DNA from: Escherichia coli
GTDB lineage: Bacteria; Pseudomonadota; Gammaproteobacteria; Enterobacterales; Enterobacteriaceae
Direction: 5' to 3' (one strand)
Assembly: GCA_022664555.1 (NCBI GenBank)
Contig: GCA_022664555.1_4839.2
DNA: 20,556 nucleotides
Below, piece by piece: positions 1,043 through 7,718 of the stretch. The position numbers and the translations under genes were made by a program. Under the pieces are notes generated by a model. That model was not told the origin of the DNA. It saw nothing but the letters and a program-made list of their open reading frames with translations, and did no database searches. Position 1 is the first letter of the stretch. Each line of letters begins with the position of its first letter.

Positions 1043-1045
1043 ATA

Positions 1046-1297
1046 ATGATATGCGCGTTTGATCAAGAATTTTATAAAAAGGTCAATATTCTAAAACTTG
1101 TCATGTCTGGAACTAGTTCGAAAGAAGTATCAGAAATTTATTGTATTTCACAGGCCAGGGTGAGCCAGATTTTGAGGGAAACTATAGGGTTACTTTGCCC
1201 AGAGATAGAAATTAAGCGCGTCAACAAAAAGTTCATTGATGAAAATTATTATACAGTAAAAGCCAAAATAAAGTGTTGGGAGAATAAGCATGTATAA
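1046..1297 (+). CDS. Small HTH DNA-binding protein (sigma-70 region-4 / NUMOD1-like helix-turn-helix)
   Basis: ATG at 1046 preceded by GAGGAGG. HTH-like segment SSKEVSEIYCISQARVSQILRE. The ORF lies in a visibly AT-rich island compared with its flanks. Confidence 0.55.
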   Translation: MICAFDQEFYKKVNILKLVMSGTSSKEVSEIYCISQARVSQILRETIGLLCPEIEIKRVNKKFIDENYYTVKAKIKCWENKHV

Positions 1298-4728: not shown

Positions 4729-5136
4729 ATGCGTTATGTAGATCGTATGCTCGGCAAAGACGAGCACGTTATTGCCTTCACCCGCCCGACTTGGTGGAGC
4801 GGTTTTTGGATTTATGTTCTGGTTATTTTAACGTTTATTCCAACATTTGGATTCAGCTTGTTATTTCTGATACCAACAATTTTAAATGTATTGACAACTG
4901 AATTCGCTGTGACTAACAAGCGCGTCATCGTCAAGCGCGGGTTCATCCGTCGTGATGCTGATGAGTTGCGCATTGGTAAGGTGGAGACAGTGAAGGTTGA
5001 TCAGTCCATCACAGGCCGCATCTTGGGTTTCTCAACAATCAGCGTGATCGGTACGGGCGGCACCCGCCTGCTGGCCAAGGGTTGTGCTGGTGGTAATGCG
5101 TTCCGTCAGAAGATCTACGATCACCTAGAAGACTGA
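4729..5136 (+). CDS. Membrane protein with bacterial PH-like (DUF304-type) domain
   Basis: ATG at 4729 with AAGGA upstream. Two hydrophobic segments followed by a TNKRVIVKRGFIRRDADELRIGKVETVKVDQSITGRILGF pattern. Confidence 0.55.
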   Translation: MRYVDRMLGKDEHVIAFTRPTWWSGFWIYVLVILTFIPTFGFSLLFLIPTILNVLTTEFAVTNKRVIVKRGFIRRDADELRIGKVETVKVDQSITGRILGFSTISVIGTGGTRLLAKGCAGGNAFRQKIYDHLED

Positions 5137-5138
5137 TC

Positions 5139-5351
5139 ATGATCATTTCAGGTTACACCATCGATCTTTATTGTGAATGCTCAGATTGCAAGGCATGCAG
5201 TTGGGCTTGGGAAGAGCATCACCCCAAGTGCGGGTTCAAACAATACACTGGTGAGACTTGGGGTGAGTGTGTCAAACAGGCGCGAGCAGACGGCTGGCAA
5301 ATTGGGCGCGACAGGCATACCTGTTACGCCCCTGGCCACAAGAGAAGTTAA
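5139..5351 (+). CDS. Small cysteine-rich protein (possible zinc-binding)
   Basis: 70 aa with CECSDCKAC ... HHPKC ... C ... C spacing; follows the previous stop by 2 nt. Confidence 0.45.
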   Translation: MIISGYTIDLYCECSDCKACSWAWEEHHPKCGFKQYTGETWGECVKQARADGWQIGRDRHTCYAPGHKRS

Positions 5352-5962
5352 GGTAAGAGCAGTCCATCATCCCGCTCCGTTGGGGCGGGTTTAATCTCCT
5401 TCCGCATCTGTTCTTTCAAGAATCTGACACGCTCGGCATGTCGGCGATCTTGCATCTCCATATCCCGTTTCTTTTTCGACTTCAATTCGAACTGTTTACG
5501 AACATCCGGATCTTCACCTGGAACAAGATGCTCTTCGGTCCAGATAATGAACTTCCAGTTCTTCTTGGCACACAGTTCGCGGGTGGCCTCCCACTTGGCA
5601 GAATTGACCAACCAGGTTCGCATCGCATTGTTGAACGTCGACTCCTTCATGTTCGGAGTCTTCTTCGGCTGCTTGATCTGGTCTTTGGGCTTGATCTCAA
5701 TGAGGGTGACCTGTAGTTCCTCTTGCCCTTCACGGCGCGTCCAGACCTTGAGGTCCATGAAGTAACGATGGGTGCGCCCGTCTACTGGGGAAATGTAAGG
5801 GATTACGGTCTCCTCGTTTTCCCAGAAAATGATCGCAGGATTAGTATCACAAAACTTGAAAGCCACAAGTTCCAAAGAAGATCGAAATACGATTTTGTTT
5901 GGGTTGCCTTTGTACTTTTTAGGATTGACAGGAACATATTTCCCTTGAAGATATTGCGCCAT
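5348..5962 (-). CDS. Hypothetical protein with PD-(D/E)xK-like nuclease motif and lysine-rich C-terminus
   Basis: ATG at 5962 with GGAGGA upstream, overlapping the seg stop (TAATG). Motif ...PYISPVDGRTHRYFMDLKVW... (D ... D-L-K). Confidence 0.5.
   Translation of the reverse strand: MAQYLQGKYVPVNPKKYKGNPNKIVFRSSLELVAFKFCDTNPAIIFWENEETVIPYISPVDGRTHRYFMDLKVWTRREGQEELQVTLIEIKPKDQIKQPKKTPNMKESTFNNAMRTWLVNSAKWEATRELCAKKNWKFIIWTEEHLVPGEDPDVRKQFELKSKKKRDMEMQDRRHAERVRFLKEQMRKEIKPAPTERDDGLLLP
5371..5395. terminator. Possible bidirectional terminator hairpin between convergent genes
   Basis: cccgctcc-gtt-ggggcggg stem-loop followed by TTTAAT. It lies in the last codons of the minus-strand ORF, so the assignment is tentative. 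Confidence 0.3.
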
Positions 5963-6699
5963 TATGCTTTCCTCCAACCTTTATGCTGTAAATTGCGACC
6001 CTTGTTTACGTGGCCCATGGAGCCTTCGCTCAAACCGATTTCTTTACAAAATTTTGCCAGGTTGACAATTGTCACCAACTGCCCTTCTGGGTTGATGAAT
6101 TTGAATTCTCGGGAATTGGCCTCGGATATTCTCTCGCGCCCTTCTTTCGTCACAGCCCCTTTGCAATTAGAGTAATCTACCAACCCCAATTCAACAAGTC
6201 GCTTATTTGAATTTCTTATTTTGTCCCTGGTTTGCTGGTCTACAACACAACCAAATCTTGGGTTATTTTCTCCCGAACGATCTTTTCCAAACCAAAAATT
6301 TCTAGAACCGTTTAGCGCTCTTGAACGATAAATTCTTTCCAGTTCTTCTTTTGGTTTAGAGAGTAATGTGTTCAGAGCTTTGGTAGACGCCTGCTTTCTA
6401 GCCTCTGGGTCTGAATTGATGTGGTCGAAGGATCCACATCCACCCAGCGTCAAATTGTATGTATCTTCCCTTTCTATAAAATCTTTGGTTACTATTCTGG
6501 ATTCTTCTAGGTACATTTGTTCCTGAGTTTCACACTCCAATAAAATATCCTTTCTGAAGTTTTCAACTCCATGTTTCTTGATTGCTCTGGTTATCATAAC
6601 ACCAGAACCCATATAGCCATCATCCGGTTCGCCTTTGTGGGCACCAACATATATCTTACCGTTTAGAAGATTGGTTATCTGGTAGACGAAGTATCTCAT
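5962..6699 (-). CDS. GIY-YIG homing endonuclease (Seg-like)
   Basis: N-terminal YFVYQITNLLNGKIYVGA ... GYMGSG ... E ... N matches the GIY-YIG catalytic module. C-terminal half has NUMOD-like DNA-binding repeats. GC is visibly lower than in the flanks. Confidence 0.8.
   Translation of the reverse strand: MRYFVYQITNLLNGKIYVGAHKGEPDDGYMGSGVMITRAIKKHGVENFRKDILLECETQEQMYLEESRIVTKDFIEREDTYNLTLGGCGSFDHINSDPEARKQASTKALNTLLSKPKEELERIYRSRALNGSRNFWFGKDRSGENNPRFGCVVDQQTRDKIRNSNKRLVELGLVDYSNCKGAVTKEGRERISEANSREFKFINPEGQLVTIVNLAKFCKEIGLSEGSMGHVNKGRNLQHKGWRKA
5962..6699 (-). mobile_element. Free-standing homing endonuclease gene inserted between nuclease and baseplate genes
   Basis: Same ORF as the Seg-like CDS; intergenic placement and compositional difference from neighbours. 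Confidence 0.55.
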
Positions 6700-6749
6700 A
6701 ATCTAGTCCTAAATAGTCATAACACTCTATCTATTTAAGGGCTGAGACC

Positions 6750-7718
6750 ATGGCCGACTTCAAGAAGACAATCGATAAGATCAAGGTTCTGAACACCAAG
6801 GGATTGTCCCAGGCTCAGAAGCAATTGTCTTATCCCCTGGACGTCACTGGGGGTAAGACCTTAGGACACTATGTCCTATTCAACATCAACCGCATCTCCG
6901 GTTCATCTTATGGCAATACGGCTACTCAGACTATCGAGAACCCAATACAGAACCCTCTGGGGAATACTCCTGTGGTCTATGGGTCCAAGTCTGGTTCCAT
7001 CACCAAATATGCATGGGCGCGTCACGTTCGTTCAAACGAGTCCATCGTCTTGTGTATGCCAGAGTCCATTACAACCAACTATGGTGTTGGCTGGAACGGT
7101 AGTGAGCTGGGGCTGGCTGGAATGGGTGCACAGTTCCTTTCCCGCGCCGCCCAAGACATGACTCAGTTTAAACTGGGTGATGCACTCAACGTCGGGAAGG
7201 AGATGGGGCGATTCGCTGCCACCAAGGCTATCCAATCTGCATCGGAGGCTATCCCGTTCCTGCCGAGCATTAACGCCCATGACACCCTTGAGTTGTTCAC
7301 AGGCACCATGACCAACCCATATGTGGAGATGATCTTCCAGGGTGTTCGCAACCGTGAGATTCCATTTACATTCAAATTCACGCCGCGATCTCAGAAGGAA
7401 GCCAAGATGGTCCGTGAGATCATCCGCATGTTCAAGATGCATATGTACCCAGAGTACAAGTACAACAAGAATTCCAGCGCGTTTTACTTGCATCCTTCAA
7501 CATTCGACATTACGTTCATGGTCAATGGGGAGCGTAACCAGTGGCTACACCGCATCTCCACTTGTGTACTTTCCAACATGTTCGTCAACGAGACGCCGGA
7601 CAGTTCATACGCGGTTCACAAAGATGATGGTATCGTGTCCACGCAGGTTGACATGACCTTCATCGAACTGGAGCCTCTGCATAAAGGGCGCTTTGAAACC
7701 GAAGGCGATAGCTTCTAA
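6750..7718 (+). CDS. Baseplate/tail-tube junction protein with tail-tube fold (gp19-family; gp54/gp48-like by size)
   Basis: 322 aa. C-terminal REIPFTFKFTPRSQKEAKMVREIIRMFKMHMYPE resembles the conserved tube-protein motif. First gene of a + strand structural operon. Confidence 0.6.
   Translation: MADFKKTIDKIKVLNTKGLSQAQKQLSYPLDVTGGKTLGHYVLFNINRISGSSYGNTATQTIENPIQNPLGNTPVVYGSKSGSITKYAWARHVRSNESIVLCMPESITTNYGVGWNGSELGLAGMGAQFLSRAAQDMTQFKLGDALNVGKEMGRFAATKAIQSASEAIPFLPSINAHDTLELFTGTMTNPYVEMIFQGVRNREIPFTFKFTPRSQKEAKMVREIIRMFKMHMYPEYKYNKNSSAFYLHPSTFDITFMVNGERNQWLHRISTCVLSNMFVNETPDSSYAVHKDDGIVSTQVDMTFIELEPLHKGRFETEGDSF

What the first reader, a model, noticed from the sequence alone, without database searches (positions are those of the whole stretch)
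5348..5962. Lysine-rich protein with a PD-(D/E)xK-like motif adjacent to the homing endonuclease
The protein has a candidate restriction-endonuclease-fold core (VDGRTHRYFMDLK) followed by a highly basic C-terminal half. It is translationally coupled to the Seg-like gene and converges on the + strand accessory block with overlapping stop codons (TTAA at 5348-5351). The function is unknown; it could be a nuclease or a DNA end-binding protein.
Basis: inference. Interest (0 to 1): 0.4.

Follow-up and report, generated by a model that had tools for sequence, protein, structure and literature searches.

The report
Phage head completion nuclease gp4

Summary

The fold guess is therefore correct, but the motif was misread. 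The invariant catalytic set is E31, D70, E89 and K91, as in T7 endonuclease I (E20/D55/E65/K67). K72 is not conserved, and D61 is nearly invariant but aligns to a non-catalytic position.

The C-terminal 56 residues form a mixed-charge helix (net +3) ending in a conserved DDGLLLP tip. T4-like gp4 proteins lack this tail, and its function is unknown. Close relatives carry a separate gp2 DNA end protector.

One side finding: the GIY-YIG gene plus the first ~150 nt of gp4 form one imported, AT-richer block, a likely homing co-conversion tract.

Novelty: already known. Interest: low.

The parts
5348..5962 (-). gp4 head completion nuclease CDS (204 aa plus stop)
   Evidence: ORF. It is 93% identical to annotated Gp4 head completion proteins of Ackermannviridae and 41% identical to T4 gp4, E 3e-34. 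PHROG 218 at 5.6e-57.
5519..5962 (-). PD-(D/E)xK nuclease core, residues 1-148
   Evidence: Pfam PF08722 covers residues 41-143. The AF2 model has pLDDT above 90 over most of the core. TnsA is the top solved match.
5870..5872 (-). codon of E31 (helix alpha-1 glutamate, in the motif RSSLE)
   Evidence: Invariant in 42 homologues. Aligned to E20 of T7 endonuclease I.
5753..5755 (-). codon of D70 (the 'PD' aspartate)
   Evidence: Invariant. Aligned to D55 of T7 endonuclease I. It sits at the start of strand 71-75 in the model.
5690..5698 (-). codons of E89-I90-K91 (the 'ExK' of the motif)
   Evidence: E89 and K91 are invariant. They lie at the end of strand 84-90. Their equivalence to T7 endonuclease I E65/K67 is inferred from the pattern, not from the alignment.
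5351..5518 (-). C-terminal extension, residues 149-204: conserved linker VPGEDPDV, a long charged helix (152-189) and a disordered tip ending DDGLLLP
   Evidence: Model. The extension is present only in homologues of 190-209 aa (Ackermannviridae-like) and absent from T4-like proteins of 140-155 aa. Charge count.
5971..5975 (-). Shine-Dalgarno GGAGG for gp4, inside the last codons of the GIY-YIG gene
   Evidence: Sequence. The junction is conserved in Se-B and LIMEstone1.
5962..6699 (-). free-standing GIY-YIG (Seg-like) homing endonuclease gene, related to F-LimII of phage LIMEstone1
   Evidence: Pfam SegE_GIY-YIG and NUMOD3, PHROG 314. Absent from the closest relative. Present at the same site in LIMEstone1 and Se-B. 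Listed in Table 1 of PMC3296691.
5812..6699 (-). imported block: the endonuclease gene plus the first ~150 nt of gp4
   Evidence: gp4 nt 1-150 are 66-68% identical to fGh-Ecl02 against 98.5% for nt 151-540, with a sharp boundary near 5812. GC is 38-41% against 49-51% around it.
5371..5399 (+). terminator-like hairpin plus T-rich tail for the converging + strand genes, embedded in the gp4 tail codons
   Evidence: Scan. Annotated as a rho-independent terminator at the same place in Ag3 and LIMEstone1.
6732..6737 (-). TAAATA box, a late-promoter-like element upstream of the endonuclease/gp4 pair
   Evidence: Sequence. It corresponds in position to the 'putative late promoter' -10 signal annotated in LIMEstone1. 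This is inference only.
5139..5351 (+). converging small ORF (70 aa, PHROG 926, function unknown) whose stop overlaps the gp4 stop
   Evidence: Annotated as orf00035 in Ag3.

Best explanation
The gene encodes the Ackermannviridae orthologue of phage T4 gp4, the head completion nuclease.

It is a small metal-dependent PD-(D/E)xK (TnsA / T7 endonuclease I-like) nuclease. Its active site is formed by E31 (helix alpha-1), D70 (start of the second core strand) and E89-x-K91 (end of the third core strand).

By analogy with T4, it is made late. It acts on DNA-filled heads after headful packaging, trimming or processing the DNA at the portal so that neck proteins and the tail can join. It is probably not a virion component.

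In this phage lineage the core carries an extra 56-residue charged helix with a conserved acidic-hydrophobic tip. I infer that this tail is a docking or oligomerisation module.

Shown here: homology, fold, conservation of the catalytic residues, and synteny. Inferred: nuclease activity, timing, role in head-tail joining, and the role of the tail.
For: Sequence homology:
- 93% identity to proteins annotated Gp4 head completion protein in Ag3, fGh-Ecl02 and others.
- 41% identity to T4 gp4 over residues 6-146, E 3e-34.
- PHROG 218 'head closure' at 5.6e-57 and Pfam PF08722 at 2.5e-17.
- UniRef names for homologues read 'Head completion nuclease'.

Structure:
- The AF2 model has pLDDT 88.2 and alpha-beta-beta-beta-alpha-beta topology.
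- Best viral models are 'Head completion nuclease' proteins, TM 0.77.

Catalytic residues:
- E31, D70, E89 and K91 are invariant in 42 homologues.
- E31 and D70 align to the catalytic E20 and D55 of T7 endonuclease I.

Context:
- The gene is divergent from baseplate genes gp48 and gp53, as T4 gene 4 is divergent from gene 53.

Literature:
- The PD-(D/E)xK fold of gp4 was predicted in PMC1189080.
- The DNase activity of T4 gp4 is reported as required for morphogenesis/packaging (Benler et al. 2020, as summarised in PMC7824862 and PMC11895373).
- gp4 was not detected in LIMEstone1 virions by mass spectrometry (PMC3296691).
Against: No enzymatic or genetic data exist for this protein or for any Ackermannviridae gp4. 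The precise substrate and step are not settled even for T4 gp4.

I could not read model coordinates, so the spatial clustering of E31/D70/E89/K91 rests on topology and homology and was not measured. The alignment to T7 endonuclease I covers only the first half of the motif and is weak (hhalign prob 63%, E 7e-5; hmmsearch E 0.12).

The C-terminal tail has no counterpart in T4 gp4, so some aspect of its function may differ.
Confidence: 0.9

Rival explanations
1. It is a DNA end-binding or end-protecting protein, functionally like T4 gp2. It would use the basic surface and the tail to cap genome ends rather than cut DNA.
For: The protein is basic overall (pI 9.5). It has a charged C-terminal helix that T4 gp4 lacks. 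Other members of the fold include inactive DNA binders.
Against: There is no detectable similarity to T4 gp2. All four catalytic residues are invariant across 42 homologues, which argues for an active enzyme. Close relatives, for example vB_CECAV_050 at 96.6% identity to this window, encode a separate gp2 homologue annotated DNA end protector.
Confidence: 0.04
2. It belongs functionally to the mobile element. It would be a TnsA-like nuclease that works with the neighbouring GIY-YIG endonuclease in homing or transposition.
For: The Pfam family is named after the Tn7 transposase subunit TnsA. The gene overlaps the Seg-like gene by one base.
Against: The gene is present, at the same place and 98.5% identical beyond nt 150, in relatives that lack the endonuclease gene. 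It is a core gene found in 2544 phage records. T4 gene 4 has no such neighbour. The endonuclease is the inserted partner, not gp4.
Confidence: 0.01
3. It is a structural head-closure (connector) protein with a degenerate nuclease fold, as the PHROG label 'head closure / connector' suggests.
For: PHROG 218 is filed under 'connector'. Older annotation calls it a head completion protein, which implies a structural part.
Against: The catalytic residues are invariant. gp4 was not found in LIMEstone1 virions although 39 other proteins were (PMC3296691). DNase activity has been reported for T4 gp4 (cited in PMC7824862).
Confidence: 0.05

Closest known systems
Phage T4 gp4 (also known as gp50/gp65), head completion nuclease
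   Same: 41% identity over the whole 145-residue core. Same Pfam and PHROG families. The same invariant E...D...ExK residues. The same position, divergent from baseplate wedge gene 53.
   Different: This protein has 56 extra C-terminal residues: a charged helix plus a DDGLLLP tip. gp48 lies between it and gp53. It is not followed by genes 2 and 3 as in T4.
Gp4 head completion protein of Shigella phage Ag3, Enterobacter phage fGh-Ecl02 and Dickeya phage LIMEstone1 (Ackermannviridae)
   Same: Same length (204 aa) and the same tail. Residues 51-204 differ from fGh-Ecl02 at two positions. Same neighbours and the same embedded terminator.
   Different: The first 50 codons differ at 13 amino-acid and 50 nucleotide positions. 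This stretch goes with the homing endonuclease gene, which Ag3 and fGh-Ecl02 lack.
TnsA (Tn7 transposase subunit) N-terminal catalytic domain
   Different: Only 14-15% identity. There is no TnsA C-terminal domain, no TnsB/C partners and no transposon context.
T7 endonuclease I (gene 3 Holliday junction resolvase)
   Same: The shared motifs FRSxLE and Y-x-x-D align, placing E31 on E20 and D70 on D55. It was reported as the best PSI-BLAST template for gp4 in PMC1189080.
   Different: The similarity is weak (E 0.12 and 7e-5 over 47 columns). There is no evidence here for the domain-swapped dimer or for junction specificity.

Membership tests
T4 gp4 head completion nuclease family (PHROG 218; Pfam PF08722 TnsA-like N) | Significant full-length sequence similarity to T4 gp4 | tested here: met
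   BLASTP gives 41% identity over residues 6-146, E 3e-34. PHROG 218 at 5.6e-57 covers profile positions 2-143 of 148.
T4 gp4 head completion nuclease family (PHROG 218; Pfam PF08722 TnsA-like N) | PD-(D/E)xK (restriction endonuclease-like) fold | tested here: met
T4 gp4 head completion nuclease family (PHROG 218; Pfam PF08722 TnsA-like N) | Intact catalytic residues E / D / ExK | tested here: met
   E31, D70, E89 and K91 are invariant in 42 homologues and in T4 gp4. E31 and D70 align to T7 endonuclease I E20 and D55.
T4 gp4 head completion nuclease family (PHROG 218; Pfam PF08722 TnsA-like N) | Genomic context among late morphogenesis genes, divergent from baseplate genes | tested here: met
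   gp48, gp53 and a baseplate hub gene lie on the opposite strand directly upstream. T4 gene 4 is divergent from gene 53.
T4 gp4 head completion nuclease family (PHROG 218; Pfam PF08722 TnsA-like N) | DNase activity required for head-tail joining | not testable with these tools
   Reported only for T4 gp4 (Benler et al. 2020, cited in PMC7824862 and PMC11895373). It needs biochemistry and genetics.
T4 gp2 DNA end protector | Sequence similarity to T4 gp2 | tested here: not met
   The best BLASTP segment has E 0.14 over 9 residues. Relatives have a separate gp2 homologue elsewhere in the genome.
Tn7-type TnsA transposase subunit | TnsA C-terminal domain and a neighbouring tnsB/tnsC transposition module | tested here: not met
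   Only the N-terminal nuclease domain matches. The neighbours are phage morphogenesis genes and a GIY-YIG gene.

The most novel reading that the evidence does not exclude
The lineage-specific C-terminal module may be a docking or regulatory device. It comprises the conserved VPGEDPDV linker, a 38-residue charged helix and an acidic-hydrophobic DDGLLLP tip, and it is found only in Ackermannviridae-like gp4. It could tether the nuclease to the portal, the terminase or the neck, or keep it inactive until packaging ends. That would give a handle on the still unclear step at which gp4 cuts DNA.

Separately, the first 150 nt of gp4 may be the target and immunity region of the neighbouring Seg-like endonuclease. 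An essential nuclease gene would then be kept mosaic by homing.
Probability: 0.25. Interest if true: 0.35.

Novelty: already known. Interest (0 to 1): 0.12.

Why it matters
It matters little as a discovery. The gene is a core morphogenesis gene of T4-related phages, it is already annotated in dozens of near-identical genomes, and its fold and activity are published.

The check is still useful in three ways:
- It corrects the active-site assignment to E31/D70/E89/K91, which is what any mutagenesis should target.
- It shows that the tail is a lineage-specific add-on of unknown role.
- It documents a clean case of a free-standing GIY-YIG endonuclease cassette. The cassette took over the ribosome-binding site and start position of an essential gene, supplies a new Shine-Dalgarno for that gene from its own last codons, and brought along about 150 nt of foreign gp4 coding sequence.

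Tried and rejected
- Sequence search of the PDB with the single protein found nothing meaningful (best E 0.13, KIN17). With the family profile, only weak T7 endonuclease I hits appeared (E 0.12). No gp4-family structure has been solved.
- NCBIfam has no model for the protein or for the tail alone.
- I could not read Benler et al. 2020, because the paper is not held. A search for 'head completion nuclease' in the paper library gave no hits. I relied on how two held papers cite it.
- I looked for the donor of the foreign 5' 150 nt of gp4 in the phage collection. The best match is only 79.9% identical, to Kutterviruses, so the donor lineage is unsampled there.
- gp2-like function was rejected.
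- The sigma-70 promoter scan found no site in 5000-6900, as expected for late genes. The late-promoter assignment rests only on a TAAATA box and on the LIMEstone1 annotation.
I repeated it without that row.
- I did not use the large representative search, the metagenome scan or the genome scan, because the identification was already unambiguous.

Full report
**Observation.** The ORF listing gives 5348..5977 (-) from an upstream TTG. Alignment with homologues shows that the protein starts at the ATG at 5962, reading MAQYLQGKY..., so it has 204 residues.

- The ATG shares one base with the TAA stop of the GIY-YIG ORF 5962..6699, forming TAATG.
- A GGAGG Shine-Dalgarno (5975-5971, -) lies 8 nt upstream of the ATG. 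Stop/start overlap is a fact; obligatory translational coupling is not shown.
- The stop codon (5350-5348, -) overlaps the stop (5349-5351) of the converging + ORF 5139..5351, so the + strand reads TTAA at 5348-5351.
- Lysine is 12.3% and the pI is 9.5. Both halves of the protein have net charge +5. The last 56 residues carry 16 K/R and 13 D/E. 'Lysine-rich' is correct; 'highly basic C-terminal half' is overstated.

**Identity.** The window is about 97% identical over 94-95% of its length to Ag3-like Ackermannviridae phages such as Enterobacter phage fGh-Ecl02 and Escherichia phage LHE287.

- tblastn with the protein finds matches in 2544 phage records. The best are 93% identical and annotated 'Gp4 head completion protein' (annotation tables).
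- The protein matches PHROG 218 'head closure' (5.6e-57, almost full profile length) and Pfam PF08722 'TnsA-like endonuclease N terminal' (2.5e-17).
- Against T4 itself it is 41% identical to gp4 over residues 6-146 (E 3e-34). It has no similarity to gp2, the DNA end protector.
- The neighbours on the other strand are gp48 (baseplate tail tube cap), gp53 (baseplate wedge) and a hub protein. This mirrors the divergent 4/53 arrangement in T4.
- Sources in the protein database name homologues 'Head completion nuclease'.

**Fold and active site.** An AlphaFold2 model built on 42 homologues is confident (mean pLDDT 88.2, pTM 0.72).

- Its elements are helix 29-40, strands 44-48, 53-57, 64-68, 71-75 and 84-90, helix 107-134, strand 137-141, a long helix 152-189 and a disordered end.
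- Foldseek against the PDB puts TnsA first (1f1z, E 3e-4, prob 1.0).
- Against predicted viral structures, the best matches are other 'Head completion nuclease' proteins (TM 0.77).

The invariant positions across 42 homologues include E31, E50, D70, E89 and K91, and the 28-sequence alignment that contains T4 gp4 agrees. D61 is at least 90% conserved (E in T4). K72 varies (K, A, Q, T, W, Y...). Profile alignments to T7 endonuclease I are weak but consistent. They place FRSSLE on FRSGLE (E31 = E20) and YFMD on YTPD (D70 = D55), with K72 opposite L57 and D61 opposite S48 (hmmsearch E 0.12; hhalign E 7e-5, prob 63%). From established knowledge of T7 endonuclease I, whose active site is E20, D55, E65 and K67, the remaining pair corresponds to E89-I-K91 at the end of strand 84-90. 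This last step is inference from pattern and topology. I could not read model coordinates to measure distances.

**What is known about the family.** Feder and Bujnicki predicted the PD-(D/E)xK fold in T4 gp4 in 2005, with TnsA and T7 endonuclease I as the best templates. They suggested a role in checking or cutting packaged DNA at head-tail attachment (PMC1189080). Iyer et al. state that a 2020 report (Benler et al., Virology 543:7-12) showed that the non-specific DNase activity of T4 gp4 is required for packaging/morphogenesis (PMC7824862). Another paper summarises the role as cleaving packaged DNA to allow head-tail joining (PMC11895373). I could not read the 2020 paper itself. In Dickeya phage LIMEstone1, whose gp4 is 91.5% identical to this one, gp4 was not found among 39 virion proteins by mass spectrometry (PMC3296691). 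That fits an enzyme better than a structural part.

**Mechanism.** The best-supported explanation has these parts:

- The protein is a late, non-structural, metal-dependent nuclease that processes the DNA end at the portal of filled heads so that neck and tail can attach.
- A late-promoter-like TAAATA box lies at 6737-6732 (-), about 33 nt before the Seg start. It matches the position of the 'putative late promoter' annotated in LIMEstone1. This is inference.
- The + strand accessory genes that converge on gp4 end in a terminator-like hairpin at 5371-5389 followed by TTTAATCT, inside the tail codons of gp4. The same element is annotated in Ag3 and LIMEstone1.

**The C-terminal tail.** Homologues fall into two length classes. 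T4-like and cyanophage proteins have 140-155 aa and end just after the last core strand. Proteins of 190-209 aa come from Ackermannviridae and related Vibrio phages and carry the extension. About 362 of the 2544 phage records cover at least 80% of the query.

Within the long class, the linker HLVPG-(E/Q)DP(D/E)V and, in the enterobacterial members, the terminal LLP are conserved. The helix itself keeps its charged character but not its sequence. No family model matches the tail. Its function is unknown. I rate docking or oligomerisation as the most plausible role. Replacement of gp2 is unlikely, because close relatives have their own gp2 homologue.

**Side finding: a homing cassette reaches into the gene.**

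- The closest relatives (fGh-Ecl02, Ag3) lack the GIY-YIG gene. There gp4 is separated from gp48 by only about 50 bp.
- Pairwise BLAST shows window 5958-6694 as a clean insertion.
- On the gp48 side, identity is 98-100% right up to the Seg ATG. The Seg ATG sits exactly where the gp4 ATG sits in the Seg-less genome.
- On the gp4 side, the first 150 nt are only 66-68% identical (50 differences; 19 synonymous and 13 non-synonymous codon changes). Identity then jumps to 98.5% at about position 5812.
- The block 5812-6699 has 38-41% GC, against 49-51% around it.
- LIMEstone1, which has the related endonuclease F-LimII at the same site, shows the same pattern against Ag3: 70.7% identity in nt 1-150 against 93.1% afterwards.
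- The last codons of the endonuclease (KGWRKA*) encode the GGAGG for gp4. This junction is identical in Se-B over the 21 bases from GGTTGGAGG through the gp4 start codon, and nearly so in LIMEstone1.
- F-LimII is listed as a free-standing SegD-like GIY-YIG endonuclease upstream of the head completion gene (PMC3296691).
- No phage in the collection has the 5' 150 nt at more than 80% identity.

The simplest reading is a homing event with a one-sided co-conversion tract. The foreign 5' end of gp4 may make the target site resistant to cutting. This fits what is established for T4 seg genes, but cleavage was not tested.

**Verdict.** The object is a well-known, already annotated core phage gene whose activity has been published. 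The motif assignment should be corrected to E31/D70/E89/K91. The only open points are the lineage-specific tail and the mosaic 5' end, and both are modest. Novelty: already known. Interest: about 0.12.

Noticed in passing
window 5812-6699: The GIY-YIG gene plus the first ~150 nt of gp4 form one imported block. Against Seg-less relatives it is 66-68% identical, compared with 98.5% beyond it, and its GC is 38-41% against 49-51% around it. The boundary near 5812 is sharp, and there is no divergence on the gp48 side. LIMEstone1 (endonuclease present) shows the same pattern against Ag3. This is a likely homing co-conversion tract or target-site immunity region.
   Followed up: yes
window 5960-5980 (- strand): The last codons of the homing endonuclease (KGWRKA*) encode a GGAGG Shine-Dalgarno 8 nt before the gp4 ATG. 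The junction GGTTGGAGGAAAGCATAATG is conserved in Salmonella phage Se-B and nearly so in LIMEstone1. The endonuclease itself uses the weaker ribosome-binding site and the start position that gp4 has in Seg-less genomes.
   Followed up: partly
window 5371-5399 (+ strand): A terminator-like hairpin (CCCGCTCCGTTGGGGCGGG followed by TTTAATCT) for the converging + strand genes lies inside the codons of the gp4 tail (KPAPTE). It is annotated as a terminator in Ag3 and LIMEstone1.
   Followed up: partly
window 5415-5436 (gp4 nt 527-548): A small patch of 6 nucleotide differences (one amino-acid change, V to F) in which this window differs from fGh-Ecl02, Ag3 and LIMEstone1 alike, within an otherwise almost identical stretch. 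It is unexplained.
   Followed up: no
window 1045-1289 and 2277-2286: There are two indels relative to the closest relative, fGh-Ecl02. About 245 bp are present only in the window (ORF 1046-1297, +). About 900 bp of fGh-Ecl02 (L001 2032-2933, three small genes) are absent from the window.
   Followed up: no
window 6708-6738: Two divergent TAAATA boxes lie in the 50-bp gp48/Seg intergenic region, at + 6710-6715 and - 6737-6732. Their positions match the two 'putative late promoter' -10 signals annotated in LIMEstone1.
   Followed up: partly
window 4729-5351 (+ strand): The accessory genes converging on gp4 are a bacterial PH-domain membrane protein (PF03703; PHROG 3707) and a 70-aa cysteine-rich protein of unknown function (PHROG 926). 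Both are conserved in Ag3.
   Followed up: no
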